Origin: a virus
Lineage: Duplodnaviria > Heunggongvirae > Uroviricota > Caudoviricetes
Strand: one strand, 5' to 3'
IMG/VR virus record: IMGVR_UViG_3300034102_002786
Coordinates: 18,413 to 82,412 of that record
Length of the DNA: 64,000 bases
Positions 43,754 through 58,597 of this stretch are shown piece by piece; positions within the stretch are counted from its first letter, which is position 1; every line of letters starts with the position of its first letter. The notes beneath the pieces were generated by a model. The model was not told the DNA's origin, made no database searches, and saw only the letters and a list, made by a program, of their open reading frames with translations. A program made the translations under genes and the position numbers.

Positions 43754-43754
43754 T

Positions 43755-47430: not shown

Positions 47431-47469
47431 GTTACAAACCTTAACGAAAGAAACCATATATGGACGACG

Positions 47470-47718: not shown

Positions 47719-47735
47719 ATTTAGTATCTTTGTAT
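47701..47735 (+). promoter_or_regulatory. Bacteroidetes-type promoter (-33 TTTG at 47701-47704, -7 TATCTTTG at 47725-47732)
   Basis: TTTGgaaaatccgaataaatttagTATCTTTGtatag. Confidence 0.55.
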
Positions 47736-47737
47736 AG

Positions 47738-48806: not shown

Positions 48807-48878
48807 TGTGGGGTAGAGCAGAGGTAGCTCGCAAGGCTCATAACCTTGAGGCCGTTGGTTCGAATCCTTCCCCCGCAA
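48807..48878 (+). tRNA. tRNA-Met-like (anticodon CAT), copy 1; the T-stem has two T-T mismatches
   Basis: Acceptor TGTGGGG/CCCCGCA, D-stem GAGC/GCTC, anticodon stem CAAGG/CCTTG with loop CTCATAA, T-loop TTCGAAT. The acceptor is identical to the tRNA at 52002. Confidence 0.55.
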
Positions 48879-48887
48879 CAAAAAAGA

Positions 48888-48921
48888 TTTGGTAGTTTGA
48901 AAAAATTATCGTATCTTTACA
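48888..48921 (+). promoter_or_regulatory. tandem promoter copy P2
   Basis: aaaaagaTTTGgtagtttgaaaaaattatcgTATCTTTAcaaagtt. Confidence 0.55.
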
Positions 48922-49040
48922 AAGTTAAGGTTGAAGCCATCAACTAATAAAACCGATTGAGTGACTCGTTAAACATTAGTTTCGTTAGAGTGAAAAGAAA
49001 CTACAAAGCCGGATACTTTAACTAACTAATTAAAAAAAGA

Positions 49041-49074
49041 TTTGGTAGTTTGAAAAAATTATCGTATCTTTACT
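49041..49074 (+). promoter_or_regulatory. tandem promoter copy P3
   Basis: aaaaagaTTTGgtagtttgaaaaaattatcgTATCTTTActaagatt. Confidence 0.55.
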
Positions 49075-49140
49075 AAGATTCAAAAATAAAGTAGTTGATT
49101 GGTTCGCCAGAAAACAAAATTGAGAATCTTTAAAAAAAGT

Positions 49141-49174
49141 TTTGGAAAATTGAAAAAGATTTCGTATCTTTACT
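49141..49174 (+). promoter_or_regulatory. tandem promoter copy P4
   Basis: TTTGgaaaattgaaaaagatttcgTATCTTTActctgttc. Confidence 0.5.
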
Positions 49175-50368
49175 CTGTTCTTAAAACAAAAGTTCTTTAA
49201 CATATTGAAGATACTACACATAGTAACCTTGTGTTACATAGTGTACGATGGCCGCCTATGGTCATTAAATAAACTACGAAAGTAGGATAAAGTGAATCAT
49301 TTGGTTAAATGATTTGCGGTTTGTAATCCGTTTAGGGTTATGAGCTTGAGTAGGCAAGTGAGATATTACTTGGGCTTTGTATGTGAGGGTAACACTGTAG
49401 CAGAAGAGTTTGGGTAACTGGGGGTATGTAGAACCTTCGGTTGAGTTCGGAAGAACAATAAGAATAACTCATAGAATTATTGTAAGACATAGAAAGCTAA
49501 TCCCTTTTTACTATTGCGTGATTCAATACCAAAGTGGTCTTGATAATCAAGCTATCCGAAAGGACGTAAGATAAGACTGTGTACGCGTGGTGGCGTTACT
49601 ATCCTTTAATGTGGGACACCAATCCCTATTAATGAAGATGACTTGAAGTATGGCGTTGAGATAACGCATTGGGTAGTTTAGTATTCTCTCGTTCAAAAGA
49701 TGGGGGAGCTGGTGATGGACCGCTACCTGAATCAATCTACAAACCAAAACTTTATATTTTCAATTTAGGTTTGAAAAACTATAATTAAACATAAAGCATA
49801 AGTGTCCATCAGTTGTGACCGAAAGGTGCATACATAGTTGGGAGTTGTTCCCAGCCATAAACGCCCGCAAGGTGGTTATGATTTTTACGAAAAGCTTATA
49901 GACCCGCAAGGTTGAATCAGTTCGGCAGGATTGAATAAGGGGAGTAGTAAGAGAGTAAGTTACAACTTTAAGAGTGGTTATACTTTACTAACCTGCATTG
50001 ACTGGTACATCTCAAAAGGGTGTGGAAACGAAAGGAATCAAAATAATCTTTCTAAAGCTAGTTATCCCAACGTGTATTCTCAACGTTTTTACTTTCTCAA
50101 TGGTTGTATATTGGTTCGATTCCAATAGAGAGAGCAAATTCATCCTGTAAGATGAATTATCGTGGTCTTTCTTTTACATAATGTTCACCTATTGAGAATA
50201 AAGAGTTATGTAGACCTAAAAGAACAAAACTAATGTAGACAGTATAGGCTGGTTTTTGTAAGTTTGACTGTTAATCCCTTATCAAATAGGGCTAAACGAA
50301 AATGGTTGACACGATAGATACCTGTGGTTAGGCAAGCGCTCGGAAAGTTCCCACCTTACAAAAAAACT

Positions 50369-50440
50369 TTCCATTTATGCGGTGTAAGTGTTACGGTAGC
50401 ACATTTCACATTCCAGTGAAAAGGAGAGGTTCAATTCCTT
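50369..50440 (+). ncRNA. tRNA-like element (pseudo-tRNA) with a 6-nt anticodon loop
   Basis: Acceptor TGCGGTG/CACCGCT (6 of 7 bp), T-arm AGAGG-TTCAATT-CCTTT, anticodon stem TTCAC/GTGAA with loop ATTCCA. Confidence 0.2.
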
Positions 50441-50505
50441 TCACCGCTCTACTAACAACTGAAAAGTTGTTCGTTTCATATCTTAATTTTTATTACAACT
50501 TAGAT

Positions 50506-50530
50506 GGGGGTGCTTCGGCATCCCCTATTT
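50506..50530 (+). terminator. rho-independent terminator with a UUCG tetraloop
   Basis: GGGGGTGC-TTCG-GCATCCCC is an 8-bp stem followed by TATTT. Confidence 0.55.
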
Positions 50531-50776
50531 AAGCCTGATGAAACTAACAACAATTCGGAAAAAATTATTTATATATACTTATTAATATAACAAAGTGATG
50601 AAAACTTTAACACTACATACAAATTGTTCGCAACCTACATTGAGAAATGAGTGGGCAGGCATTCGTATGTTTAGTACGATTAGTAATCCGGCAAACTTAG
50701 GCAAGGTGGATTATATTTGTACACAGTTAGAGGAAGCATCAGGTTGGTAATAGATTATACTTAAAACAACATAGAA

Positions 50777-50816
50777 AGACCTCTAACTGAATCAAATCGG
50801 TTAGAGGTTTTTTCGT
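50777..50816 (+). terminator. rho-independent terminator
   Basis: AGACCTCTAAC-(12-nt loop)-GTTAGAGGTTT followed by TTTTT; ends 6 nt before tRNA-Asn. Confidence 0.6.
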
Positions 50817-50821
50817 TTTAA

Positions 50822-50893
50822 GCTCCTTTGGCGCAGCGGTAGCGCAGCAGACTGTTAATCTGTTGGTCCTTGGTTCGAATCCAAGAGGGAGCG
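50822..50893 (+). tRNA. tRNA-Asn (GTT)
   Basis: Acceptor GCTCCTT/AGGGAGC, D GCGC/GCGC, anticodon loop CTGTTAA, T-arm CTTGG-TTCGAAT-CCAAG. Confidence 0.85.
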
Positions 50894-50926
50894 CAGTATA
50901 TGTTCTTTGACATATTGGGATAAGTT

Positions 50927-51001
50927 GGAAGTTTAGCTCAGCTGGTTTAGAGCATCACGTTTACACCGTGAGGGTCATAGGTTCGAATCCTGTAACTTCC
51001 A
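50927..51001 (+). tRNA. tRNA-Val (TAC)
   Basis: Acceptor GGAAGTT/AACTTCC, D GCTC/GAGC, anticodon arm TCACG-TTTACAC-CGTGA, T-loop TTCGAAT. Confidence 0.85.
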
Positions 51002-51106
51002 CAACATGTTCCATACACATTCCTACAATCTCTCAGTTGAAAGCTGTTGTAGGATTGAGTGAGTAGCACGATAGGGCTATCAAATGTGAGTTATATGGAA
51101 CGCCAT

Positions 51107-51188
51107 TGGGGTATCGCATAGTGGCAATTGCGGCTGACTGTAAATCAGCTCTCATTTGAGTTCGGCGGTTCGAGTCCGTCTACCCCAA
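51107..51188 (+). tRNA. tRNA-Tyr (GTA), class II with a long variable arm
   Basis: Acceptor TGGGGTA/TACCCCA, anticodon arm GCTGA-CTGTAAA-TCAGC, 14-nt variable arm, T-arm GGCGG-TTCGAGT-CCGTC. Confidence 0.8.
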
Positions 51189-51192
51189 CACC

Positions 51193-51265
51193 GGTGATGA
51201 AGCTAACTAGGTAGAAGCGAAAGACTGAAAATCTTTAGGAAGTGGTTCGATACCACTCATTACCA
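51193..51265 (+). tRNA. tRNA-Phe (GAA)
   Basis: Acceptor GGTGATG/CATTACC, anticodon arm AAAGA-CTGAAAA-TCTTT, T-arm AGTGG-TTCGATA-CCACT. Confidence 0.8.
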
Positions 51266-51287
51266 CTTAACAATTAAAAAAACAATT

Positions 51288-51497
51288 ATGGCAGATTTTA
51301 ATCATGGAGTTGGTACATTAATAAAAGAGTTGGTGACACCAAAAGGAAAAATTGAAATGGGTAGTAAAGGAATAGTAACTGCGTATCTACCAGAAGATGG
51401 TAAGTTCGCAGTAGATTTTGGAAATGGACAATGGATAACATTTGATAAAATATCATTGGACGAATATTGTAAAATAGAATTAGAAGATAACAATTAA
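51288..51497 (+). CDS. hypothetical protein embedded in the tRNA array
   Basis: 69-aa ORF between tRNA-Phe and tRNA-Lys. Confidence 0.4.
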   Translation: MADFNHGVGTLIKELVTPKGKIEMGSKGIVTAYLPEDGKFAVDFGNGQWITFDKISLDEYCKIELEDNN

Positions 51498-51537
51498 AAA
51501 CAAATACTATGGAAAGTGACAAGTATGACAAAAGTCA

Positions 51538-51611
51538 GACCTCTTAGCTCAGTTGGTTAGAGCACTATACTTTTAATATAGGAGTCAATGGTTCGAATCC
51601 ATTAGGGGTCA
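51538..51611 (+). tRNA. tRNA-Lys (TTT)
   Basis: Acceptor GACCTCT/AGGGGTC, D GCTC/GAGC, anticodon arm CTATA-CTTTTAA-TATAG, T-arm AATGG-TTCGAAT-CCATT. Confidence 0.85.
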
Positions 51612-51686
51612 CAAAAAGTTCCGAACTTAATATTGAGTTAAAATAATGATGTACACATTATACGATAGGATGGAAACCTATCACAT

Positions 51687-51760
51687 TGGAGTATAGCTCA
51701 GTTGGTTAGAGCGCTAATCTGATACGTTAGATGCCGCAGGTTCGAATCCCGCTACTCCAA
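51687..51760 (+). tRNA. tRNA-Ile (GAT)
   Basis: Acceptor TGGAGTA/TACTCCA, D GCTC/GAGC, anticodon arm CTAAT-CTGATAC-GTTAG, T-loop TTCGAAT (one A-C mismatch in the T-stem). Confidence 0.75.
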
Positions 51761-51765
51761 CACAC

Positions 51766-51836
51766 ATGGGTATAGTGAAATGGTATCATGCCGGTCTCCA
51801 AAACCGTTGTTGTGGGTTCGAATCCTACTACCCGTG
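51766..51836 (+). tRNA. tRNA-Trp (CCA)
   Basis: Acceptor ATGGGTA/TACCCGT, D GTGA/TCAT, anticodon loop CTCCAAA, T-arm GTGGG-TTCGAAT-CCTAC. Confidence 0.7.
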
Positions 51837-51841
51837 CAATT

Positions 51842-51914
51842 GGCTCTTTAGTGAAATGGATTATCACACAACGCTACGGACGTTGGGTTAAAGGTTCGAA
51901 TCCTTTAGGGGCTA
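51842..51914 (+). tRNA. tRNA-Arg (ACG)
   Basis: Acceptor GGCTCTT/AGGGGCT (three G-U pairs), D GTGA/TCAC, anticodon arm CAACG-CTACGGA-CGTTG, T-arm AAAGG-TTCGAAT-CCTTT. Confidence 0.7.
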
Positions 51915-51922
51915 CATAATAA

Positions 51923-51993
51923 GGCGAGTTGTTAGAGTGGTGATATGAAGTTCTGCAAAAACTTTTACACAGGTTCGAATCCTGTACTCGCCT
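51923..51993 (+). tRNA. tRNA-Cys (GCA)
   Basis: Acceptor GGCGAGT/ACTCGCC, anticodon arm AAGTT-CTGCAAA-AACTT, T-arm ACAGG-TTCGAAT-CCTGT; the D-arm pairs weakly. Confidence 0.75.
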
Positions 51994-52001
51994 CTTGATA
52001 T

Positions 52002-52073
52002 TGTGGGGAGATTAGGTAATCCGTTTGGTCTCATAAGCCAGATATTCAGGTTCAATTCCTGGCCCCGCAACCA
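52002..52073 (+). tRNA. tRNA-Met-like (CAT), copy 2, with a reduced D-arm and an encoded 3' CCA
   Basis: Acceptor TGTGGGG/CCCCGCA, anticodon loop CTCATAA, T-arm TCAGG-TTCAATT-CCTGG, ends A-CCA. Candidate initiator or Ile-lysidine tRNA. Confidence 0.55.
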
Positions 52074-52076
52074 AAT

Positions 52077-52151
52077 GGTGTTTGAAGCATTAAGGTGATG
52101 CGCTAGTTTGTGGAGCTAGATAAGACGGTTCGATACCGTCCTTACACCCCA
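52077..52151 (+). tRNA. tRNA-His (GTG) with the extra 5' G(-1) and an encoded CCA
   Basis: G-1 plus acceptor GTGTTTG/CTTACAC (two T-T mismatches), D GCAT/ATGC, anticodon arm CTAGT-TTGTGGA-GCTAG, T-arm GACGG-TTCGATA-CCGTC, discriminator C. Confidence 0.65.
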
Positions 52152-52153
52152 AC

Positions 52154-52243
52154 GGAGAGTTGCCTGAGTGGCCGAAAGGGCCGGTTTGCTAAACCGTTGT
52201 ACGGAGTTAATCTGTACCGAGAGTTCGAATCTCTCACTCTCCG
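52154..52243 (+). tRNA. tRNA-Ser (GCT), class II
   Basis: Acceptor GGAGAGT/ACTCTCC, anticodon loop TTGCTAA, long variable arm TGTACGGAGTTAATCTGTACC, T-arm GAGAG-TTCGAAT-CTCTC. Confidence 0.8.
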
Positions 52244-52252
52244 CATAAATAA

Positions 52253-52286
52253 TTTGGATAATTGAAAAATTATTCGTATATTTGTA
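52253..52286 (+). promoter_or_regulatory. Bacteroidetes-type promoter inside the array (-33 TTTG at 52253-52256, -7 TATATTTG at 52277-52284)
   Basis: aaTTTGgataattgaaaaattattcgTATATTTGtataac. Confidence 0.55.
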
Positions 52287-52306
52287 TAACTTAAAACATA
52301 AAAGAG

Positions 52307-52735
52307 ATGAACGTAAAACAGGCTTTAAAAGCAAAGAACAAACTTACCACTCAAATCAAAGCGTTATATGAAATCGCTAAGAATCATAACTCAATTGAGG
52401 AAGGTAACCTGCGTAGATATTCCGTAAATGGAGTATTGAATGAAGCAGAAGAATTGACCAAAGAGTTGGTTGATTTAAAAACTAAAATCCATCAGGCTAA
52501 CCAACCTGTATATGGTAAGATTTTCCTAATGGCAGAGCTAAAAGGAAAGGTAAAGCAACTTAAAGGAATGAGTTGTGAAGAAGGTAAAGTAACCGAAAGA
52601 TTTGGTTCAATCCAATCGGTGAAAGAAGTAGAAATTAATATCGCTCAAAAAGACCAAATGATAAAAGATTTGGAAAATCAAATTGAGGGATTGCAGGATG
52701 AGTTGGATGTGTATAACGCAACTACAACCATCTAA
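52307..52735 (+). CDS. hypothetical coiled-coil protein embedded in the tRNA array
   Basis: 142-aa ORF downstream of the internal promoter. Confidence 0.5.
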   Translation: MNVKQALKAKNKLTTQIKALYEIAKNHNSIEEGNLRRYSVNGVLNEAEELTKELVDLKTKIHQANQPVYGKIFLMAELKGKVKQLKGMSCEEGKVTERFGSIQSVKEVEINIAQKDQMIKDLENQIEGLQDELDVYNATTTI

Positions 52736-52947
52736 TAAAAAATTGGGAAGATGTGAGTGATGAAATTTGTTTTTATTATTATCTTGCAAATCTGACGCAT
52801 TGCCAATCAGTATTAAACGATGATGATTAAATAATTTCAACTCTCAAATCTTGATAGAGTCAACATTCGCGCAATGTCAACACACTCAAAACTCTTATTA
52901 ATTGGTAATCATATTAACTTATTGATTCACCACATCAACCCATCTAT

Positions 52948-53019
52948 GCTCGGTTCGTCTAACGGTTAGGACACCACCCTTTCACGGTGGTGATACGGGT
53001 TCGATTCCCGTACCGAGTA
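52948..53019 (+). tRNA. tRNA-Glu (TTC)
   Basis: Acceptor GCTCGGT/ACCGAGT, D GTCT/GGAC, anticodon arm CCACC-CTTTCAC-GGTGG, T-arm ACGGG-TTCGATT-CCCGT; resembles bacterial tRNA-Glu throughout. Confidence 0.85.
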
Positions 53020-53113
53020 CAATAGCATACATCACAATCAGTCAAGCCGTATTTAGCTGTTAGTGTATGTTAGATAAGAGAAAGAAACGGCTGGGACATT
53101 CTCTTATCAAAAC

Positions 53114-53185
53114 GCTTCCAAAGCATTGCAGGCGATGCGCTTGACTTGTAATCAAGATAATTCGGTTCGATTCCGGATGGAAGCT
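53114..53185 (+). tRNA. tRNA-Thr (TGT)
   Basis: Acceptor GCTTCCA/TGGAAGC, D GCAT/ATGC, anticodon arm CTTGA-CTTGTAA-TCAAG, T-arm TTCGG-TTCGATT-CCGGA. Confidence 0.85.
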
Positions 53186-53260
53186 CAAACTAATTCATTG
53201 AGGTGTTTGTCAACCAGTGCATGACATGGATGGTGCGGATAAAGGTGAATTAGTGATTAA

Positions 53261-53334
53261 GGATTGTTGGTGAAGTTGGTTATCATGCCACCCTGTCACG
53301 GTGGAGTTCACGGGTTCGAGTCCCGTACAATCCG
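53261..53334 (+). tRNA. tRNA-Asp (GTC)
   Basis: Acceptor GGATTGT/ACAATCC, D GTGA/TCAT, anticodon arm CCACC-CTGTCAC-GGTGG, T-arm ACGGG-TTCGAGT-CCCGT. Confidence 0.85.
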
Positions 53335-53582
53335 CAAAAGGTATAATTAGATTGTATATGCAATTAGCTCGGCAATCTTTAACACCTGCAGATGTGAGGT
53401 GATTATACTTTTAAGTTGTTTCATACACTTAACACACCTAGTAACAAGGTAAGGCACATAGAGTTACATAGAGGCATGGAGTAATTACCCAACGCCACAT
53501 TCGGACTACAAATGTAGATTAGGTTCAGACGTTGTAGAGAAAGAGATGTTAAGAGTAAACTTGCAAGTTGAAACAACTGTTT

Positions 53583-53659
53583 GGTTCGGTAGCTCAGTTG
53601 GATAGAGCAACAGCCTTCTAAGCTGTGGGTCAAAGGTTCGAATCCTTTCCGAATCACCA
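53583..53659 (+). tRNA. tRNA-Arg (TCT) with an encoded CCA
   Basis: Acceptor GGTTCGG/CCGAATC, D GCTC/GAGC, anticodon arm ACAGC-CTTCTAA-GCTGT, T-arm AAAGG-TTCGAAT-CCTTT, then A-CCA. Confidence 0.85.
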
Positions 53660-53674
53660 AATAAAAAGTAAGAC

Positions 53675-54121
53675 ATGAAAAATGTAACTTTAGTAACATG
53701 CTTCTTTTTGTTATTCATTCCGCATAATATAAATAACTCTGAAAGGAGTGAGGAAGAAGTTGTGGATGAAATAATAGAAAAGAAAAAGTTACCTTATGAT
53801 TTAGTGACCGTAACAACGTACACTGTATCTAAAGGTGAAACCGATTCAACTCCATTAATTACCGCAAGTGGTTACAAATTGGATAGCCTTAATCCAAAGA
53901 AACAAAAGGTAATAGCAATAAGCAGAGACCTGAAACGAAAGTATAAGTTTGGACAAAAAGTAAGAGTGAAGGGTGCTGGTAAATTAGATGGTGTATATAC
54001 CGTCAGAGATTTAATGGCGAAGAGATGGACAAAAAAGATTGATATATTAATTAACCCAGATGATAAAGGAACAAAAATCAGAAAGGTTAAGTTATATAAT
54101 GTAGCAAACATAGGGAATTAG
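53675..54121 (+). CDS. secreted 3D-domain protein (MltA/YocH-like cell-wall-binding or lytic fold)
   Basis: N-terminal signal-like segment, then VTVTTYTVSKGETDSTPLITASGYKL...VRVKGAGKLDGVYTVRD, which follows the 3D-domain pattern (TAYT..E.D..P.TASG). Its 3' end overlaps tRNA-Pro by 10 nt. Confidence 0.6.
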   Translation: MKNVTLVTCFFLLFIPHNINNSERSEEEVVDEIIEKKKLPYDLVTVTTYTVSKGETDSTPLITASGYKLDSLNPKKQKVIAISRDLKRKYKFGQKVRVKGAGKLDGVYTVRDLMAKRWTKKIDILINPDDKGTKIRKVKLYNVANIGN

Positions 54122-54185
54122 CGTAGCCCGGTATCGCGCTTGGTTTGGGACCAAGAGGTCGTCAGTTCGAATCTGGCATTCCCTA
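54112..54185 (+). tRNA. tRNA-Pro (TGG)
   Basis: Acceptor AGGGAAT/ATTCCCT, anticodon arm CTTGG-TTTGGGA-CCAAG, T-arm GTCAG-TTCGAAT-CTGGC. Confidence 0.8.
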
Positions 54186-54218
54186 CGAAAAGATTTGGAT
54201 AAGTGAAATATAAAATAA

Positions 54219-54446
54219 ATGGCAAAGTATATTAAAACCGCATTCATACGAGATTTAGAAATCAAATTGCAAAATGAAGAAATTTCATATGGTAAAGCGA
54301 TTGAACTTATTCAAGAAGAAGTTATTGAAAATTATAAAAAAGATAATACCTTATTGAAAAAAATAAAAAGATTATTAGGTGAGGTTTGGCTAGGATTTAA
54401 GATAGCTGAAGGAAACCGAAATAAATCTCAATGGGGTAAATTTTAA
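54219..54446 (+). CDS. hypothetical protein embedded in the tRNA array
   Basis: 75-aa ORF. Confidence 0.4.
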   Translation: MAKYIKTAFIRDLEIKLQNEEISYGKAIELIQEEVIENYKKDNTLLKKIKRLLGEVWLGFKIAEGNRNKSQWGKF

Positions 54447-54447
54447 A

Positions 54448-54482
54448 TTAGGATAATTAAAATATTATTCGTATCTTTGTAT
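54448..54482 (+). promoter_or_regulatory. promoter inside the array (-7 TATCTTTG at 54472-54479; degenerate -33)
   Basis: ggataattaaaatattattcgTATCTTTGtatag. Confidence 0.45.
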
Positions 54483-54504
54483 AGTTATTTGAAATAGTAT
54501 CGCC

Positions 54505-54590
54505 GCCGAGGTGATGGAATGGTAGACATGAAAGACTTAAAATCTTTTGAGCAGAAATAGCTCGTGTGGGTTCGACTCCCATCCTCGGTA
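54505..54590 (+). tRNA. tRNA-Leu (TAA), class II
   Basis: Acceptor GCCGAGG/CCTCGGT, D-arm TG-ATGG-AATGGTAG-ACAT, anticodon arm AAAGA-CTTAAAA-TCTTT, 18-nt variable arm, T-arm GTGGG-TTCGACT-CCCAT. Confidence 0.8.
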
Positions 54591-54600
54591 CGTTCAATTA

Positions 54601-54674
54601 GGGGAAGTAGCTCAGTTGGCTAGAGCATCTGCCTTGCACGCAGAGGGTCATGGGTTCGACTCCCTTCTTCTCCA
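54601..54674 (+). tRNA. tRNA-Ala (TGC) with the G3:U70 identity pair
   Basis: Acceptor GGGGAAG/CTTCTCC (G3-T70 wobble), D GCTC/GAGC, anticodon arm TCTGC-CTTGCAC-GCAGA, T-loop TTCGACT. Confidence 0.8.
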
Positions 54675-54678
54675 CATC

Positions 54679-54752
54679 GGACCTATAGCTCATTCGGTTA
54701 GAGCAACTGACTCATAATCAGTAGGTGCTTGGTTCGATTCCAAGTGGGTCCA
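54679..54752 (+). tRNA. tRNA-Met (CAT), copy 3, canonical elongator-like
   Basis: Acceptor GGACCTA/TGGGTCC, D GCTC/GAGC, anticodon arm ACTGA-CTCATAA-TCAGT, T-arm CTTGG-TTCGATT-CCAAG. Confidence 0.85.
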
Positions 54753-54760
54753 CAAAAATT

Positions 54761-54833
54761 GCGGAAGTAGCTCATTCGGTAGAGCACAACCTTGCCAAGG
54801 TTGGGGTGGCCAGTTCGAGCCTGGTCTTCCGCT
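54761..54833 (+). tRNA. tRNA-Gly (GCC)
   Basis: Acceptor GCGGAAG/CTTCCGC, D GCTC/GAGC, anticodon arm CAACC-TTGCCAA-GGTTG, T-arm GCCAG-TTCGAGC-CTGGT. Confidence 0.85.
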
Positions 54834-54893
54834 CAAAAGGACTTTAATGGTTGAAGTACAAAACCGAAGTAGGTTAGTCCCACCTACACAAAA

Positions 54894-54966
54894 GCGAGAG
54901 TAGCTCATTTGGTAGAGCGGTAGCCTTCCAAGCTTCAGGTGGCCAGTTCGAGCCTGGTCTCTCGCT
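54894..54966 (+). tRNA. tRNA-Gly (TCC)
   Basis: Acceptor GCGAGAG/CTCTCGC, D GCTC/GAGC, anticodon loop CTTCCAA (one mismatch in the stem), T-arm GCCAG-TTCGAGC-CTGGT. Confidence 0.75.
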
Positions 54967-55025
54967 CAAGTGGGCCTGTTAGTATTAGGCCGCAAGAAGA
55001 ATAGATGTTTTTCAATTACTACAAA

Positions 55026-55053
55026 CTCAAGCATTAATTTGCTTGGGTTTTAT
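55026..55053 (+). terminator. hairpin plus T-tract (weak terminator or attenuator) before tRNA-Gln
   Basis: CTCAAGCA-ttaatt-TGCTTGGG followed by TTTTATT. Confidence 0.35.
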
Positions 55054-55125
55054 TGCCCGATGATGTAATGGTTAGCATCACAGATTTTGATTCTGTTCGT
55101 ATTGGTTCGAGTCCAGTTCGGGTAA
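55054..55125 (+). tRNA. tRNA-Gln (TTG)
   Basis: Acceptor TGCCCGA/TCGGGTA, anticodon arm ACAGA-TTTTGAT-TCTGT, T-arm ATTGG-TTCGAGT-CCAGT. The track's TTG-start ORF at 55053 overlaps this tRNA and is rejected. Confidence 0.75.
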
Positions 55126-55136
55126 CAAAAAATATT

Positions 55137-55598
55137 ATGAAATATAAAATTTCATTTGAAGATATAAATAAAATAAAAGAGGTTTACAAAAATGGTAATG
55201 ATACTAGATATGTACCTAGCAATTCAGATGATATAAATAGTCCATATTTCATAAAAAGTGAAAGATTTTTTTGTGATTTAAAAAATGATGAATTACTAGA
55301 TATTATAAAAAATAATATACCAATAGATGATGTTAATGAATGTATAACATCAATTCATTATATAAATTACAAAAAAGGTGAAGGGGCAAAAGAACATAGT
55401 GATATTGGTGCATCTAATAAAACTTTTATTTTCATTCTAAACGATGAATTTGAAGGTGGTGAATTTCATTTGGATAAAAATTATGTTCCATTAGTGAAAG
55501 GAGATATAATAGCTTTTAATGGAAATCAGCTACACTTAGTTAAACCAATTAAAAAAGGAAATAGAGAGGTTTTAGTTGTCTTTCTAAAAAATAAATAA
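55137..55598 (+). CDS. 2OG-Fe(II) oxygenase superfamily protein (prolyl-4-hydroxylase/PKHD-like)
   Basis: HSD...H facial triad candidates (EHSDIG, then LHLVKP) and a C-terminal RE.LVVF strand. Start set at the ATG after tRNA-Gln. Confidence 0.65.
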   Translation: MKYKISFEDINKIKEVYKNGNDTRYVPSNSDDINSPYFIKSERFFCDLKNDELLDIIKNNIPIDDVNECITSIHYINYKKGEGAKEHSDIGASNKTFIFILNDEFEGGEFHLDKNYVPLVKGDIIAFNGNQLHLVKPIKKGNREVLVVFLKNK

Positions 55599-55625
55599 AA
55601 ATTTTAATAATTAAAAACAAATGTT

Positions 55626-55889
55626 ATGGGATTATTTTGGACGTATTATGTAATTTGTTTCATCTATTGTCTTGTAATGTCAATACGAAAATGGAATAGA
55701 GATGTAAGAGCAGGTGGTTTAGGTATATCACCTGGTTTAGATTCTTTGGCTCTATTGATTATGTGTTGGATATTAGCACCAGTAGATATATTCTTAACTT
55801 GGGTTAGGGTATATAAAGAAGCAGAAGAAGCAAGAAGAAATCAAAGTACTTTAGATACTAAAGACTTTAAAGATGAAAAAGTATTCTAA
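55626..55889 (+). CDS. small membrane protein
   Basis: 87-aa ORF with two TM helices. Confidence 0.45.
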   Translation: MGLFWTYYVICFIYCLVMSIRKWNRDVRAGGLGISPGLDSLALLIMCWILAPVDIFLTWVRVYKEAEEARRNQSTLDTKDFKDEKVF

Positions 55890-55906
55890 TTATTAGAGTA
55901 CTAAAC

Positions 55907-55991
55907 AGAGAGTTGGCCGAGTGGTTGATGGCGGCAGTCTTGAAAACTGTTTTACTGAAAGGTAACGGGGGTTCGAATCCCTCACTCTCTG
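55907..55991 (+). tRNA. tRNA-Ser (TGA), class II
   Basis: Acceptor AGAGAGT/ACTCTCT, 3-bp D-stem GCC/GGC, anticodon arm GCAGT-CTTGAAA-ACTGT, 16-nt variable arm, T-arm GGGGG-TTCGAAT-CCCTC. Confidence 0.8.
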
Positions 55992-55996
55992 CACAT

Positions 55997-56143
55997 TGTA
56001 AGGTGTTGGAATTGGCAGACAAGCCCTCCTGTCTCGGGGGTGGTGAGCACGAAATAGGTTAGTAATATGGGGTAGACCACCATCCTGCAGGAATGTGTTA
56101 CTAACTGAATCGCACTATGGTGGTTCGAATCCATCTCTTACAG
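55997..56143 (+). tRNA. 147-nt tRNA-like gene (Leu-like D-arm) carrying a ~78-nt insertion between the anticodon-arm region and the T-arm; anticodon unresolved; possibly intron-containing or disrupted
   Basis: Acceptor TGTAAGG/TCTTACA (7 bp), D-arm TG-TTGG-AATTGGCAG-ACAA is almost identical to the adjacent tRNA-Leu genes, candidate anticodon arm CCCTC-CTGTCTC-GGGGG, T-arm GGTGG-TTCGAAT-CCATC. The insert 56041-56118 contains a 9-bp hairpin GGTTAGTAA...TTACTAACT and the palindrome TCCTGCAGGA. Confidence 0.4.
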
Positions 56144-56148
56144 CAAAG

Positions 56149-56230
56149 GCCCCGTTGATGGAATTGGTAGACATGCCAGACTTAGGATCTGGTGCTGAGA
56201 AGCATAAGAGTTCGAGTCTCTTATGGGGCA
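56149..56230 (+). tRNA. tRNA-Leu (TAG), class II
   Basis: Acceptor GCCCCGT/ATGGGGC, D-arm TG-ATGG-AATTGGTAG-ACAT, anticodon arm CCAGA-CTTAGGA-TCTGG, 13-nt variable arm, T-arm AAGAG-TTCGAGT-CTCTT. Confidence 0.8.
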
Positions 56231-56246
56231 CTCAAAAACAAAATTT

Positions 56247-56702
56247 ATGAAGTACAAAAAGCTTTATGGTAGAGAAGAATTTGAACTTATCCCTTATGTT
56301 AAAAACTATTTTGAAAACAATGAAAATATTGAACTTCTTATCGGATGTGATTCGCAAAACTTTGCCGATAAAACAATATATGCCGTTGTTGTGGCTTTGT
56401 ACCATAACGGAAAAGGAGCTCATGTACTTTATAGAAGATGGAAAGCAGATAGAGAACCAACCCGTTCAGTAAGATTATTAAACGAAGTTTGGTATGCAAT
56501 TGAAGCAGCTGAATATTTAAGAGAAGCTGGTATTCCAAAACCAAAGTGGATTGATATTGATTTGAATCCAGATCCACGCTTTAAATCAAATGAAGTGTTC
56601 AGACAAGCAGTTGGTATGGTAGAAGGTATGGGGTATGAAGTACGATATAAAACATTAGGTCCAATTGCAACTTATGCAGCTGACCACTTAGTAAAAATAT
56701 AA
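56247..56702 (+). CDS. hypothetical protein
   Basis: Start moved to the ATG at 56247, because the track start at 56223 lies inside tRNA-Leu. Confidence 0.5.
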   Translation: MKYKKLYGREEFELIPYVKNYFENNENIELLIGCDSQNFADKTIYAVVVALYHNGKGAHVLYRRWKADREPTRSVRLLNEVWYAIEAAEYLREAGIPKPKWIDIDLNPDPRFKSNEVFRQAVGMVEGMGYEVRYKTLGPIATYAADHLVKI

Positions 56703-56703: not shown

Positions 56704-57303
56704 ATGAGTTACTCATCTGTTCAAGACTTATTTATTAGTATTCCTCAAAAAGTATTACTTGTTGGAAACGGTGATATTAAAAATATGGGAAGTATAATAG
56801 ATAGTTATGAATATGTAATTCGTTTCAATGATTTCCAATTGGATGGACATGAAGAAAATGCAGGTACTAAAATATCTGCATTATCTTTGCATTGCAGTGA
56901 CTTTTCTCACAAACATACAAAGTATTTAGAAAAAAATTATATAAAGTATAGTGGTAGTGTTCCTATATTTACAACATCACCAAAGTATCCAAACAGCAAA
57001 GATGATATAATACATATACAATCTGGAACTAAACTATTGGATGTATCACTTCCTTTGATGATTAGCCCAACATTTAGACTTTCATCGGGAGGAACTTTAG
57101 CATTAAATTTATCTTTGTTCTTTAATAAAGAAGTACATTTAGTTGGGTTTAATTTTTTCTTAAAATCAGGTCATTACTACGATAAAGATTTTACAAACGA
57201 AGAATTTTGGAAAAAAATTATGGGAACTGATGTTGTTGAACATGATGGTGAGTTTGAAAAAAGAATACTAACTAATTTTAAGAACATTCACATAATTGAT
57301 TAA
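56704..57303 (+). CDS. sialyltransferase-like glycosyltransferase (GT29/GT42-like sialyl-motif L)
   Basis: VLLVGNGDIKNMGSIIDSYEYVIRFNDFQLDGHEENAGTKIS follows the sialyl-motif L pattern (V.GNG..L.....ID..D.V.R.N...). Confidence 0.5.
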   Translation: MSYSSVQDLFISIPQKVLLVGNGDIKNMGSIIDSYEYVIRFNDFQLDGHEENAGTKISALSLHCSDFSHKHTKYLEKNYIKYSGSVPIFTTSPKYPNSKDDIIHIQSGTKLLDVSLPLMISPTFRLSSGGTLALNLSLFFNKEVHLVGFNFFLKSGHYYDKDFTNEEFWKKIMGTDVVEHDGEFEKRILTNFKNIHIID

Positions 57304-58597
57304 TATGAAAATAGTTGCGTTTTTACCTGTAAAGGGAACAAGTTCAAGAATAGAAAACAAAAATATAAAATTGTTGGATGGTAAACCACTATTCTTACAT
57401 ACATTAGAAAAACTTTTACAATGTGATATTATAGACGAAGTTTATTTAGATACTGAATCCAATGAGGTAATTGGTATGGCATCTCATTTAAATCATTTTG
57501 TATTAAAGAGAGACCATTCTTTGGCTGATAATAAAACCGATGGTAATAAATTATTTATGAATGAAGTTAGGCAAGTGGATGCCGATATATACATTCAGAT
57601 TTTATGTACATCACCTTTTATAGAAACCAATACAATTAAATTAGCAATAAATCAAATAGTACATTCCAAATATGATTCGGCTGTTTTAGTTAGAGATGAA
57701 AAATTATATACGTGGACAGATGGTAAGCCTGTGTATGATATAAACAATATACCTAACAGTGTTGATTTGGAAAGTACAACAATTGAAACTATGGGATTAT
57801 ACATAGTAAAAAAAGAATGTGCTATACAAACTCAAAGAAGAATAGGTGATAATCCATTTTTAGTTAAAGCAAGTATAATCGAAGCCATTGATGTTAATTG
57901 GCCTGAAGATTTTGAATTGGCAAATCTTATAGCAGCTGGTTTGAGAGAGAAAGATAGAATCTTATTGGATAACCTAAAAAGTCAATTGAATAGTTCGATG
58001 CTATCGGATTTGTTAGATGATTTGGGATATTCAACTATAATAAACGGATTACAACCAAACATAATTGATGCTAAGATTTTTGGTAGAGCTAAAACTTTGA
58101 AGATACGAAAGTTAAAAGAAGGTGATAGTTACAAAGGAATATACAATGCATTACATAGTTATAATACAATAGTACCAAATGATGTTATAATTGTTGAAAA
58201 CGAAATATCAGATTACGCATACTTTGGTGAACTAAATGCTAACTTAGGAATACGTTCTGGTGCGGTTGGTGCAATTGTTGGTGGGGTTACTAGAGATTCA
58301 GCTGATGTAAAGAAATTAGGGTTTCCTGTATTTGCTAAAGGTAATAAATGTATTGATGTTAGAAGGCGTGCAACTTTGGATGGAATAAATGTTCCAATAC
58401 AAATAGAAGGTGTTAGGATACTACCCGGTGATTTAGTATTTGCTGATAACGAAGGTATTGTTGTTATACCAAAAGAAATTGAGAAAAAATTATTGGCTAT
58501 GGCTATGGAAGTTTGTATGAAAGAAAAAAGTGTATTGTTGGATATAGCTAATGGTATAGGAGTTGATGAACTTGTAAAACGAAATGGAGAATTCTAA
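57296..58597 (+). CDS. fusion of a CMP-N-acylneuraminate (or CMP-nonulosonate/KDO) cytidylyltransferase domain with a C-terminal RraA-family domain
   Basis: The N-terminal KIVAFLPVKGTSSRIENKNIKLLDGKPLF is the NeuA/KdsB signature. The C-terminal GIRSGAVGAIVGGVTRDSADVKKLGFPVFAKG...GDLVFADNEGIVVIPKE is the RraA/MenG-like fold. Confidence 0.7.
   Translation: MINMKIVAFLPVKGTSSRIENKNIKLLDGKPLFLHTLEKLLQCDIIDEVYLDTESNEVIGMASHLNHFVLKRDHSLADNKTDGNKLFMNEVRQVDADIYIQILCTSPFIETNTIKLAINQIVHSKYDSAVLVRDEKLYTWTDGKPVYDINNIPNSVDLESTTIETMGLYIVKKECAIQTQRRIGDNPFLVKASIIEAIDVNWPEDFELANLIAAGLREKDRILLDNLKSQLNSSMLSDLLDDLGYSTIINGLQPNIIDAKIFGRAKTLKIRKLKEGDSYKGIYNALHSYNTIVPNDVIIVENEISDYAYFGELNANLGIRSGAVGAIVGGVTRDSADVKKLGFPVFAKGNKCIDVRRRATLDGINVPIQIEGVRILPGDLVFADNEGIVVIPKEIEKKLLAMAMEVCMKEKSVLLDIANGIGVDELVKRNGEF

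What the first reader, a model, noticed from the sequence alone, without database searches (positions are those of the whole stretch)
55997..56143. 147-nt tRNA-like gene with a 78-nt insertion: intron-containing or element-disrupted class II tRNA
Perfect 7-bp acceptor, a D-arm nearly identical to the two tRNA-Leu genes and a canonical T-arm are all present. Between the anticodon-arm region and the T-arm lies a 78-nt segment with its own 9-bp hairpin and a PstI-site palindrome (TCCTGCAGGA). The putative anticodon loop CTGTCTC is non-canonical. It could be a self-splicing or protein-spliced intervening sequence, a mini-element insertion, or a precursor of a suppressor tRNA.
Basis: seen in the sequence. 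Interest (0 to 1): 0.7.

Follow-up and report, generated by a model that had tools for sequence, protein, structure and literature searches.

The report
Oversized tRNA-Asp look-alike RNA in phages
This is an intact gene for a 148-base tRNA-shaped RNA, conserved in more than a hundred uncultured phages, that keeps the nucleotides which mark a tRNA as "aspartate" but has lost the hallmarks of decoding and carries a large extra arm whose tip looks built to pair two copies together; no description of it turned up.

Summary
Window 55997-56144 (+) folds as a tRNA with a 78-nt segment between the anticodon arm and the T arm. It lies 4 nt from tRNA-Ser and 4 nt from tRNA-Leu in a 27-tRNA phage array.

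The interpretation does not hold. This is not an intron, a mobile insertion, a pseudogene or a suppressor precursor. At least 118 distinct homologues in IMG/VR phage contigs keep the segment. Covariation supports eight helices: 97.6% of cells paired, and 29 of 41 pairs show compensatory changes. Shorter relatives of 75-118 nt, with arms of 5-31 nt, show that the 78 nt are an expanded class II variable arm.

The family keeps all five strong aspartate identity nucleotides (G73, G34, U35, C36, C38). Position 33 varies and position 37 is a pyrimidine, so decoding is unlikely. The arm tip (TCCTGCAGGA here) is a perfect palindrome in 112 of 116 members, in at least 19 different sequences. That points to tip-to-tip homodimers.

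Best reading: a non-decoding, probably dimeric tRNA-Asp mimic, matured like a tRNA, that engages AspRS or another tRNA-Asp-binding protein. Its function is untested. Rfam 15 does not contain it, and five literature searches found no description.

The parts
55997..56144 (+). Whole gene of the tRNA-shaped RNA (U1 to C74), 148 nt
   Evidence: Covariance model R1 scores it 151.4 bits, E = 1e-38. It lies 4 nt after tRNA-Ser(tga) 55907-55992 and 4 nt before tRNA-Leu(tag) 56149-56231.
55997..56003 (+). Acceptor stem, 5' strand (TGTAAGG). U1 and G2 are conserved.
   Evidence: 115 of 118 unique homologues have 7/7 pairs. Five of the 7 pairs show compensatory changes.
56004..56023 (+). U8, G9, a 3-bp D stem (56006-08 / 56020-22) with a Leu-type D loop (GAATTGGCAGA), and G26
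   Evidence: The D stem covaries: UUG/CAA, GUG/CAC, ACG/CGU, GCG/CGC. A14/A15 and G18G19 are invariant. The 26:44 pair covaries as A.C / G.U.
56024..56040 (+). Anticodon-like arm: 5-bp stem and 7-nt loop CUGUCUC. G34 U35 C36 lie at 56031-56033, U37 at 56034 and C38 at 56035.
   Evidence: All 5 stem pairs covary. GUC is invariant. Position 33 is U 49 / C 42 / A 12 / G 1. Position 37 is U 91 / C 11 / A 2. Position 38 is C 100 / A 4.
56041..56118 (+). Expanded variable arm (78 nt). Helices: V1 56042-45/56113-16; V2 56050-52/56110-12; V3 56057-67/56096-56106. A 4-nt bulge lies at 56046-49. An internal loop AAUA (56053-56) / GAA (56107-09) separates V2 from V3.
   Evidence: V1, V2 and V3 all show compensatory changes: 3 of 4, 3 of 3 and 8 of 11 pairs. 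The motifs GAAAUAG and UGAAUC are nearly invariant.
56069..56081 (+). V4: conserved small hairpin GGGG-UAGA-CC(A)CC
   Evidence: GGGKUWGACCAC is nearly invariant in the long-armed family. Its outer pair covaries: G-C in 53, U-A in 22. The motif is absent in one divergent member, L021.
56083..56092 (+). V5: perfect 10-nt palindrome TCCTGCAGGA at the tip of the arm; putative homodimerisation site
   Evidence: 112 of 116 members have a perfect palindrome of at least 8 nt here, in at least 19 different sequences. The central 4 nt are always self-complementary. Only 1 of 133 class II tRNA variable arms from the same loci has such a palindrome. The hairpin form is -1.4 kcal/mol; the duplex form is about 17 kcal/mol better.
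56119..56135 (+). T arm: GGTGG TTCGAAT CCATC
   Evidence: GGTTCGAATCC is nearly invariant and the stem covaries.
56136..56144 (+). Acceptor stem 3' strand (TCTTACA), discriminator G73 (56143) and C74 (56144)
   Evidence: G73 is present in 116 of 116 members and C74 in about 99%. All 27 tRNAs of the array also encode C74.

Best explanation
The stretch is an intact gene for a tRNA-shaped non-coding RNA. It belongs to a phage RNA family for which I found no prior description.

What is shown:
- The body is a genuine class II tRNA fold: a 7-bp acceptor stem, a 3-bp D stem with a Leu-type D loop, invariant A15 and U48, a covarying 26:44 pair, a 5-bp anticodon stem and a canonical T arm.
- The 78-nt 'insertion' is an evolutionary expansion of a normal class II variable arm into five helices (V1-V5). 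It is conserved in sequence and structure.
- The loop keeps G34 U35 C36 C38, and the 3' end keeps G73. These are the five strong aspartate identity determinants. G2-C71 is also kept.
- The two positions that matter for decoding have drifted: position 33 is any base and position 37 is a pyrimidine.
- The tip of the arm is a perfect palindrome in almost every member, although its sequence differs between members.

What is inferred:
- The RNA is co-transcribed with the tRNA array. It is released by RNase P and 3' processing, completed by CCA addition like its neighbours, and keeps its arm rather than being spliced.
- Two copies pair tip to tip through V5 as a 10-bp duplex.
- The dimer acts as a mimic of tRNA-Asp. 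It engages a protein that reads the aspartate identity set: the dimeric AspRS, possibly with aspartylation, or a host nuclease that targets tRNA-Asp.
- It does not deliver aspartate on the ribosome.
For: Family and structure:
- There are 118 unique homologues, 115 of them with a 7/7 acceptor stem.
- Covariance model scores separate cleanly: long-armed members 100-177 bits, short-armed relatives 59-94 bits, ordinary tRNAs 40 bits or less.
- 97.6% of cells are paired and 29 of 41 pairs have double changes. All 500 shuffles and all slid versions score lower.
- 26:44 covaries, and A15 and U48 are invariant.

The arm is retained, not removed:
- Arm motifs are more conserved than the acceptor stem.
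- Arm lengths form a continuum.
- No intron or ribozyme model matches.

Aspartate mimicry:
- G73 is present in 116/116 members.
- GUC is invariant, even when searched for negatively.
- C38 is present in 100/104 and G2-C71 in 98%.
- The identity set is taken from Giege & Eriani 2023, PMC9976931.
- ARAGORN calls the trimmed RNA and the short-armed relatives tRNA-Asp(gtc).

Not a decoder:
- Position 33 is U/C/A/G and position 37 is U or C in 102 of 104.
- A canonical tRNA-Asp (loop CUGUCAC) coexists in the window and in every array seen with at least 18 tRNAs.

Dimerisation:
- Palindrome statistics and controls.
- Energies.

tRNA-like maturation:
- 4-nt spacers to the flanking tRNAs, the same strand as the array, the same C74 convention, and U at position -1 in most members.
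Against: - No expression, end-mapping, aminoacylation or dimerisation data exist. Every functional step is inferred.
- From general knowledge, AspRS is a class II synthetase that approaches tRNA from the variable-loop side, so a 78-nt arm could clash with it.
- G1-C72, which helps position the 3' end in bacterial AspRS, is replaced by U1-A72.
- A long arm plus G73 plus G2-C71 also resembles the serine identity set, so SerRS could be the synthetase.
- No Asp-specific anticodon nuclease is known to me.
- Short-armed relatives have arms of ordinary class II size that a ribosome could accommodate. The ancestral function could therefore be decoding.
- Perfect palindromes might arise from a mutational mechanism or a DNA-level role rather than from RNA dimerisation.
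Confidence: 0.5

Rival explanations
1. A working 'stealth' tRNA-Asp. It is charged by AspRS and reads GAC/GAU on the ribosome. Everything not needed for charging or pairing (positions 32, 33 and 37, the D arm type, the variable arm) has been changed so that a host nuclease targeting tRNA-Asp no longer recognises it.
For: - It keeps exactly the AspRS determinants plus the anticodon.
- The concept is precedented for phage tRNAs (van den Berg 2023, PMC10264068; T5 tRNAs against PARIS and retron effectors, listed).
- Short-armed relatives have ordinary class II dimensions, and each is often the only tRNA-like gene in its locus.
- A GUC:GAC pairing has two G-C pairs and may tolerate a pyrimidine at position 37 (inference).
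Against: - Position 33 takes all four bases within the family, whereas U33 is near-universal in elongator tRNAs.
- Position 37 is a pyrimidine in 98% of members.
- A 78-nt five-helix arm, an extra D-loop hairpin in 87 of 115 members and a self-complementary tip are hard to reconcile with passage through the A, P and E sites.
- The phage already has a canonical tRNA-Asp.
Confidence: 0.2
2. A tRNA scaffold carrying a functional RNA module. The tRNA body only provides processing and stability. The active part is the expanded arm, which would bind a protein or ligand or act as an assembly element. The Asp-like loop would be a relic.
For: - The arm motifs GAAAUAG, GGGKUWGACCAC and UGAAUC are the most conserved parts of the molecule.
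- A second family in related phages uses a tRNA-Leu-like scaffold (AGUCAGG...CCUGACU-A73) with hypervariable middles, up to 6 copies per locus.
- The engineered tRNA-scaffold principle is well known.
Against: - GUC, C38 and G73 are invariant across both the long-armed and the short-armed relatives. The short-armed relatives lack the module altogether. The loop and discriminator are therefore under selection independently of the arm.
Confidence: 0.15
3. An intron-containing tRNA-Asp. The 78 nt are excised by self-splicing or by a protein, leaving a tRNA of about 70 nt.
For: - In-silico removal gives a sequence that ARAGORN calls tRNA-Asp(gtc), and ARAGORN's relaxed intron mode also forces a tRNA-Asp call.
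- One relative, L273 (75 nt), has a 5-nt variable loop.
Against: - The position is wrong for bacterial group I tRNA introns, and 78 nt is too short.
- No Rfam intron or ribozyme matches at E <= 10.
- There is no bulge-helix-bulge motif.
- Even after removal, the loop remains non-canonical.
- Intermediate arm lengths look like expansion of an arm, not gain or loss of an intron.
Confidence: 0.04
4. A decayed tRNA gene, or a tRNA disrupted by a small mobile element, with no function.
For: - Standard tRNA finders miss it.
Against: - At least 118 distinct sequences are conserved across phages whose neighbouring protein is only 53-92% identical.
- Compensatory changes occur in every helix.
- There are no terminal repeats.
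Confidence: 0.01

Closest known systems
Class II tRNAs (bacterial tRNA-Leu, tRNA-Ser, tRNA-Tyr)
   Same: 3-bp D stem, Leu-type D loop, A15-U48, a stem-forming variable arm that starts right after position 44, canonical acceptor and T arms, and location in a tRNA array.
   Different: - The arm is 78 nt with five helices, against roughly 13-21 nt with one helix.
- The discriminator is G73, not the A73 of Leu and Tyr.
- The anticodon is GUC.
- U33 and purine 37 are not kept.
- tRNA models do not detect it.
tRNA-Asp(GUC)
   Same: G73, G34, U35, C36, C38 and G2-C71. The loop CUGUCUC differs from the phage's own tRNA-Asp loop CUGUCAC only at position 37.
   Different: tRNA-Asp is a class I tRNA with a 4-bp D stem, a 4-5-nt variable loop and G1-C72. 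Here the body is class II, the first pair is U1-A72, position 37 is a pyrimidine and position 33 is variable.
Allo-tRNAs and other non-canonical cloverleaf tRNAs of bacteria and phages (Mukai et al. 2017, PMC5389517)
   Same: Unusual tRNA-shaped RNAs with long variable arms and G73, found in metagenomes and phages, whose anticodons do not match their likely charging identity.
   Different: Allo-tRNAs have 8/4 or 9/3 acceptor/T configurations. This family has the standard 7/5 configuration and a far larger arm. That paper was not read in detail here.
tRNA-like non-coding RNAs (bacterial Y RNA YrlA, the tRNA-like domain of tmRNA, plant-virus tRNA-like structures)
   Same: They reuse the tRNA elbow and acceptor to be handled by tRNA enzymes while serving a non-decoding role. 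Some are aminoacylated.
   Different: - In YrlA the RNA ends lie in the Ro-binding stem, not the acceptor stem.
- tmRNA has G3.U70 and a tag reading frame.
- Viral tRNA-like structures are 3' ends of genomes with pseudoknotted acceptors.
- None of these models matches.
   Same: A self-complementary apical sequence, kept palindromic while its sequence changes, is the signature of RNA-RNA self-association. GOLLD, encoded 6 kb upstream in this window, forms homo-oligomers (PMC12286853).
   Different: Here the palindrome spans the whole small hairpin (8-12 nt) at the tip of a tRNA variable arm. There is no sequence or structural similarity to those RNAs, and self-association is untested.
Engineered tRNA scaffolds for recombinant RNA expression
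   Same: A tRNA body gives correct processing and stability to an embedded foreign RNA module.
   Different: The engineered scaffold replaces the anticodon arm. Here the anticodon arm is retained and conserved, and the module sits in the variable arm.

Membership tests
Canonical elongator tRNA (Rfam RF00005 / ARAGORN) | Cloverleaf with a 7-bp acceptor, D arm, 5-bp anticodon stem with a 7-nt loop, and T arm GTTCRANYC | tested here: met
   All helices are present and covary. The tertiary signatures U8, A14, G18G19, 26:44 and A15/U48 are present.
Canonical elongator tRNA (Rfam RF00005 / ARAGORN) | U33 and purine 37 in the anticodon loop | tested here: not met
   The window copy has U33 but U37. 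In the family, position 33 is U 49 / C 42 / A 12 / G 1 and position 37 is a pyrimidine in 102 of 104.
Canonical elongator tRNA (Rfam RF00005 / ARAGORN) | Detected by tRNA models, with a variable region of about 24 nt or less | tested here: not met
   No ARAGORN call and no Rfam tRNA match, even at E <= 10. The variable region is 78 nt. It is called tRNA-Asp(gtc) only after trimming.
Aspartate-accepting tRNA (AspRS identity set) | The five strong determinants G73, G34, U35, C36 and C38 (PMC9976931) | tested here: met
   All five are present in the window copy. In the family: G73 116/116, GUC invariant, C38 100/104.
Aspartate-accepting tRNA (AspRS identity set) | G1-C72 and G2-C71, as conserved in bacterial tRNA-Asp | tested here: inconclusive
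   G2-C71 is present in 98% of members, but the first pair is U1-A72 in 98%.
Aspartate-accepting tRNA (AspRS identity set) | Actual aspartylation by AspRS | not testable with these tools
   This needs an in vitro charging assay.
Serine-accepting class II tRNA | Long variable arm plus G73 (plus G2-C71); anticodon irrelevant | tested here: inconclusive
   All three features are present. However, the arm is 4-5 times the normal length and G1-C72 is absent. SerRS recognition depends on arm orientation, which could not be tested.
Leucine-accepting tRNA | A73 discriminator with A15-U48 and G18G19 | tested here: not met
   The core elements are present, but the discriminator is G73 in all members.
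tRNA with a group I intron | Intron in the anticodon loop with a P1-P9 catalytic core of about 200 nt or more | tested here: not met
   The insert lies in the variable region and is 78 nt. There is no Intron_gpI or any ribozyme match at E <= 10.
tRNA with an archaeal-type (bulge-helix-bulge) intron | Two 3-nt bulges on opposite strands separated by a 4-bp helix | tested here: not met
   There is only one bulge: 4 nt, on the 5' strand, between V1 and V2. The 3' strand is continuous.
tmRNA | tRNA-Ala-like domain with G3.U70, pseudoknots and a tag reading frame | tested here: not met
   ARAGORN's tmRNA search found none. The 3:70 pair is U-A.
Bacterial Y RNA (YrlA) | A Ro-binding stem formed by the RNA ends, with the tRNA-like module distal to it | tested here: not met
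   No Rfam match. The RNA ends form the acceptor stem.
Miniature mobile element inserted in a tRNA gene | Terminal inverted repeats, target-site duplication, and presence/absence polymorphism at an otherwise identical site | tested here: not met
   There are no consistent flanking repeats across members. The arm covaries as RNA, including G.U pairs. Arm lengths are graded.
Self-associating RNA with a palindromic apical sequence (HIV-1 DIS type) | An apical sequence kept self-complementary through sequence change | tested here: met
   112 of 116 members have a perfect palindrome of at least 8 nt, in at least 19 versions, with six different self-complementary central tetranucleotides. Controls: 7% of shuffles and 1 of 133 class II arms.
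Self-associating RNA with a palindromic apical sequence (HIV-1 DIS type) | Demonstrated dimer in solution | not testable with these tools
   Only nearest-neighbour energies are available: about -17 kcal/mol in favour of the duplex.

The most novel reading that the evidence does not exclude
Phages make aminoacylatable but non-decoding tRNA mimics. This one would be a tip-to-tip homodimer presenting two tRNA-Asp look-alikes with the spacing to capture a dimeric tRNA-Asp-reading protein, either AspRS or a defence nuclease. Together with the tRNA-Leu-like scaffold family seen in related phages, which keeps exactly the LeuRS identity set, it would define a class of phage RNAs that exploit synthetase identity rules for purposes other than translation.
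Probability: 0.2. Interest if true: 0.85.

Novelty: new variant of a known kind. Interest (0 to 1): 0.68.

Why it matters
If the reading is right, this is a widespread phage RNA (more than 100 contigs) that standard tRNA finders and Rfam miss or mislabel. The short-armed relatives are called 'tRNA-Asp' by ARAGORN.

It would be a natural example of three things:
- a tRNA body used as a platform for expansion segments;
- selection that preserves synthetase identity elements while discarding decoding elements;
- an RNA-RNA dimerisation signal at the tip of a variable arm.

It gives directly testable hypotheses for the open question of what phage-encoded tRNA-like genes do beyond codon supply, including possible decoys in the tRNA-targeting arms race. 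It also matters for annotation. Counting these genes as tRNA-Asp, or as 'tRNA with intron' or pseudogenes, distorts phage tRNA censuses.

Tried and rejected
1. Intramolecular 'kissing' between the GUC loop and the GAC of the conserved GACCAC motif. Both are invariant, so there is no covariation to test. The neighbouring position does not covary in a Watson-Crick way. The divergent member L021 keeps GUC but lacks GACCAC, as do the short-armed relatives. Not required; dropped.
2. Functional link to the downstream RNase H-like gene (PF04308, 56247-56702). It is present near the RNA in only 14 of 113 loci that were fetched independently of that gene.
3. Group I intron, hammerhead, other small ribozymes and riboswitches. 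No Rfam match at E <= 10. The GAAA...CUGA motifs flank a two-way internal loop, not a three-way junction.
4. Bulge-helix-bulge intron. The geometry is absent.
5. Queuine-insertion (TGT) substrate. It needs U33-G34-U35, and position 33 is not conserved.
6. Replacement of a missing tRNA-Asp. A canonical tRNA-Asp coexists.
7. Bacterial origin. Only 5 real hits among 185,579 species genomes, all on tiny contigs of Bacteroidota MAGs, which are probably phage fragments.
8. Cultured relatives. None in 50,697 phage records by blastn, for either the element or a short-armed relative.
9. tRNA-related enzymes in the window. Pfam scans of 45 ORFs gave only sugar-metabolism and other auxiliary genes.
10. 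Promoter or terminator next to the gene. Nothing convincing.
11. Packaging-RNA analogy. In one lineage the RNA lies just upstream of a small ORF, TerL and portal. These phages have ordinary large terminases, and in jumbo phages the gene sits in the tRNA array. This was treated as synteny, not as evidence.
Full report
CONTEXT. The window is part of an uncultured large phage. All genes lie on the + strand and GC content is about 32%. It carries a block of sugar-nucleotide and glycosyltransferase genes, plus heme oxygenase, bilin reductase, AdoMet decarboxylase and TerC. It also carries a GOLLD RNA and an array of 27 ARAGORN-called tRNAs between 48.8 and 56.2 kb. The finding lies between tRNA-Ser(tga) 55907-55992 and tRNA-Leu(tag) 56149-56231, with 4-nt spacers on each side.

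THE OBSERVATION. The sequence reads as follows:
- TGTAAGG (acceptor 5' strand)
- TG
- TTG-GAATTGGCAGA-CAA (D arm)
- G
- CCCTC-CTGTCTC-GGGGG (anticodon-like arm)
- 78 nt
- GGTGG-TTCGAAT-CCATC (T arm)
- TCTTACA (acceptor 3' strand)
- G73, C74

The acceptor stem has six Watson-Crick pairs and one G.U. The D loop is almost that of the neighbouring tRNA-Leu genes. The main hairpin of the 78-nt segment has 11 pairs rather than 9. TCCTGCAGGA lies at 56083-56092. ARAGORN, the Rfam tRNA model and every other Rfam family miss the element, even at E <= 10. Single-sequence folding is not significant (z = -1.75).

IT IS A CONSERVED GENE.
- Loci fetched through the downstream 151-aa ORF contain homologues of the whole 147 nt at 70-91% identity, insert included.
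It found only five real hits among 185,579 species genomes, all on small contigs of Bacteroidota MAGs.
- In total there are 118 unique sequences of 144-176 nt. Of these, 115 have a 7/7 acceptor stem with many different sequences.
- A covariance model built from 24 of them scores members at 100-177 bits and ordinary tRNAs at 40 bits or less.
- On a MAFFT alignment not fitted to any structure, 97.6% of cells pair. Shuffles give 77.9% and slid partners give 40-50%. Twenty-nine of 41 pairs show compensatory double changes, spread over all eight helices.
- Mutual information also recovers the tRNA tertiary pair 26:44 (A.C / G.U). A15 and U48 are invariant.

The RNA therefore adopts a genuine class II tRNA fold.

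ANATOMY OF THE 78 NT. After one unpaired base the segment runs as follows:
- V1 (4 bp)
- a 4-nt bulge
- V2 (3 bp)
- an asymmetric purine-rich internal loop (AAUA / GAA)
- V3 (11 bp)
- a junction bearing two tips: V4, a conserved small hairpin GGGG-UAGA-CC(A)CC, and V5, a short GC-rich element

The motifs GAAAUAG, GGGKUWGACCAC and UGAAUC are more conserved than the acceptor stem. Most members (87 of 115) carry an additional hairpin inside the D loop. The window copy does not.

NOT AN INTRON, ELEMENT OR SUPPRESSOR.
- The segment sits in the variable region.
- It is far too short for a group I core.
- It matches no ribozyme or intron model.
- It lacks bulge-helix-bulge geometry.
- It has no consistent flanking repeats.

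A further scan found about 34 unique short-armed relatives (75-118 nt). They share U1-A72, G2-C71, U8G9, the 3-bp D stem, the GGCAGAC D loop, the NNGUCUC loop and G73-C74, but their variable regions are only 5-31 nt. The model scores them at 59-94 bits. One of them (L213/L218, 91 nt) has the same acceptor and loop sequence as the window copy. Others (L250, L223, L279, L244) have intermediate arms with V1 and remnants of the internal-loop motifs. The 78 nt are therefore an expansion of a pre-existing class II arm, comparable to an rRNA expansion segment.

The anticodon is GUC, which does not match a stop codon. Three scans demanded the family motifs but a different base at position 34, 35 or 36. 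Each returned only the same three loci, and all three are register shifts that still read CUGUCUC.

WHAT THE CONSERVATION PATTERN SAYS. In the loop the counts are:
- G34, U35 and C36 are invariant.
- C38 is present in 100 of 104.
- Position 33 is U 49 / C 42 / A 12 / G 1.
- Position 37 is U 91 / C 11 / A 2.

The short-armed relatives show the same pattern. G73 is invariant, and G2-C71 is present in 98%.

According to Giege & Eriani 2023 (PMC9976931), aspartate identity rests on five strong determinants, G73, G34, U35, C36 and C38, with G2-C71 as a minor one. The family keeps exactly these. It gives up U33 and purine 37, which matter for the anticodon U-turn and for codon-anticodon stacking (general knowledge).

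The phage's own tRNA-Asp (53261-53335) has the loop CUGUCAC and G73. A canonical tRNA-Asp coexists in every array seen with at least 18 tRNAs. ARAGORN calls the in-silico trimmed element, and the short-armed relatives, tRNA-Asp(gtc).

I read this as selection for recognition by a protein that reads the aspartate identity set, not for decoding.

Caveats:
- U1-A72 replaces G1-C72.
- A long arm plus G73 plus G2-C71 also resembles serine identity.
- From general knowledge, a class II synthetase faces the variable-loop side of the tRNA, where a 78-nt arm might clash.

THE PALINDROMIC TIP.
- In 112 of 116 unique members, the 22 nt after GACCAC contain a perfect palindrome of at least 8 nt. It is 10 nt in 81 members.
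- There are at least 19 different versions, including GCTTGCAAGC, GCCGGCCGGC, AGCCGGCT, GCTGCAGC, GCTAGCTAGC, TCCGGCCGGA, TCCTGCAGGA, GCATGCATGC, GCTCGAGC, GCTGGCCAGC, AGCGCGCT and GCTCGCGAGC.
- The central four bases would be the loop of a hairpin and cannot pair within one. They are always self-complementary: TGCA, GGCC, CCGG, AGCT, TCGA or CGCG. Only 1 in 16 random tetranucleotides has this property.
- Shuffles of the same 22 nt reach 8 nt in about 7% of cases.
- Of 133 distinct class II tRNA variable arms from the same loci, only one does.
- By my reading of the sequences listed, the short-armed relatives have ordinary hairpins.
- Thermodynamically the V5 hairpin is marginal: -1.4 kcal/mol here, and none is predicted for the 8-nt versions. 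The intermolecular duplex is about 16-19 kcal/mol better.

Symmetric change across a hairpin 'loop' is the signature of intermolecular pairing, so I infer tip-to-tip homodimers. Short D-loop hairpins in some lineages are also perfect palindromes. A mutational or DNA-level origin of the palindromes cannot be excluded.

GENOMIC SETTING.
- In jumbo phages the gene is usually the last member of the tRNA array, on the same strand. A tRNA-Ser is the nearest upstream tRNA in 52 of 116 loci, within 300 nt in 47 of them.
- A small two-helix membrane protein (window 55626-55889) lies upstream in 43 of 116 loci.
- The RNase H-like gene downstream (PF04308) accompanies it in only 14 of 113 independently fetched loci.
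- In smaller phages the RNA, short- or long-armed, is often the only tRNA-like gene within 5-14 kb.
- In one lineage it sits between a 170-aa ORF and a 77-94-aa ORF followed by the large terminase and portal genes.

A phage that carries only this 'tRNA' is hard to explain by codon supply.

MECHANISM: BEST GUESS AND RIVALS.
- Best guess (about 0.5). The RNA is matured like a tRNA and retains its arm. It dimerises through V5 and acts as a non-decoding mimic of tRNA-Asp towards AspRS, possibly being aspartylated, or towards a nuclease that targets tRNA-Asp.
- 'Stealth' decoding tRNA-Asp that evades such a nuclease (about 0.2). This is precedented in concept: PMC10264068, and the T5 examples listed. 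It is disfavoured by the free position 33, the pyrimidine at 37, the size of the arm and the self-complementary tip.
- A tRNA scaffold for an arm-borne module, with the loop as a relic (about 0.15). This is disfavoured because GUC, C38 and G73 are equally conserved in relatives without the module.
- Spliced intron (about 0.04).
- Pseudogene or mobile element (about 0.01).

COMPARISON AND NOVELTY. The closest known things are:
- class II tRNAs (body);
- tRNA-Asp (identity);
- non-canonical phage and bacterial tRNAs such as allo-tRNAs;
- tRNA-like non-coding RNAs (YrlA, tmRNA, viral tRNA-like structures);
- for the tip, palindromic dimerisation loops.

It fails membership of canonical tRNA on three counts: the loop, the arm size and model detection. 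It fails membership of every intron or tRNA-like family tested. No Rfam 15 family matches. Five full-text literature searches found no description, and no cultured phage carries it. I classify it as a new variant of a known kind, namely tRNA-derived non-coding RNA or non-canonical tRNA. Its function is unknown and needs experiment.

Noticed in passing
window 49669-50086 (+), within the ORF-poor stretch about 48900-50800: A GOLLD RNA (Rfam RF02032, 295.9 bits, full-length model match) lies just downstream of tRNA-Met 48807-48879. GOLLD forms 14-mer nanocages and is typically found near phage tRNA islands (PMC12286853).
   Followed up: partly
window 50378-50449 (+): ARAGORN calls a 72-nt 'tRNA-???' with a 6-nt anticodon loop (AUUCCA) right after the GOLLD region. 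The Rfam tRNA model does not reach its gathering score there. This may be another non-canonical tRNA-like RNA, or part of the GOLLD linker.
   Followed up: no
L120 (six copies, - strand: 5129-5276, about 5956-6033, 6142-6262, 6477-6616, 7682-7830, 7946-8052); also L133, L136, L088, L195, L182, L075, L078: A second family of tRNA-shaped RNAs has an almost invariant acceptor (AGUCAGG/CCUGACU), a tRNA-Leu-type D arm, a T arm and A73-C74. The anticodon and variable arms are replaced by hypervariable 40-100-nt inserts (total length 79-149 nt). It retains exactly what E. coli LeuRS needs (A73, A15-U48, G18G19; PMC9976931), but its acceptor differs from the phages' real tRNA-Leu genes.
   Followed up: partly
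Homologues of the element, e.g. L017 2021-2189, L082 2967-3137, L004 2712-2883: 87 of 115 family members carry an extra hairpin inside the D loop; the window copy has none. Long versions share a 7-nt loop, CUCAGUU. Short versions are often perfect palindromes (GCGTACGC, AGCCTAGGCT, GATTGACACGCGTGTCAATC), which could be a second self-pairing site.
   Followed up: partly
L213, L218, L212, L273 and about 30 other loci: Short-armed relatives (75-118 nt) are called 'tRNA-Asp(gtc)' of 85-98 nt by ARAGORN, although tRNA-Asp is never class II and these have U37 and any base at position 33. Such genes are probably mis-annotated as ordinary tRNA-Asp in phage genomes. In most of these loci it is the only tRNA-like gene.
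   Followed up: partly
L212, L222-L224, L227, L239, L253, L272, L275, L283 and 15 long-armed loci (e.g. L105, L108): Conserved synteny in one phage lineage: exonuclease (phrog_298) ... 170-aa ORF - the RNA - 77-94-aa ORF without any family match - large terminase (phrog_6681) - portal (phrog_6547).
   Followed up: partly
window 48807-56231 (all tRNA genes): Every tRNA gene of the array encodes C74 after the discriminator. Only three encode a full CCA (Met 52002-52073, His 52078-52151, Arg-tct 53583-53659). Several have U1-A72 (two Met, Tyr, Ile, Gln).
   Followed up: no
window 55626-55889 (+): An 87-aa predicted two-helix membrane protein with no Pfam or PHROG match is the most frequent protein neighbour of the RNA. 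It lies upstream in 43 of 116 loci.
   Followed up: partly
window 56247-56702 (+): An RNase H-like protein (PF04308/DUF458, E = 7e-19) lies directly after the tRNA array. Distant relatives occur in Vibrio, Ruegeria and huge uncultured phages, where some are annotated as ribonuclease.
   Followed up: partly
window 51-16176, 39420-48636, 56704-58597: Dense auxiliary metabolism:
- UDP-GlcNAc 2-epimerase, several NAD-dependent sugar epimerases/dehydratases, DegT aminotransferase, FkbM methyltransferases and GT2/GT11/GT29 glycosyltransferases.
- A CMP-sugar-type cytidylyltransferase fused to an RraA-like domain.
- TerC, heme oxygenase plus ferredoxin-dependent bilin reductase, AdoMet decarboxylase and a SAM-lyase-like protein.
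- A 796-aa collagen-repeat protein at 18219-20609.
   Followed up: no
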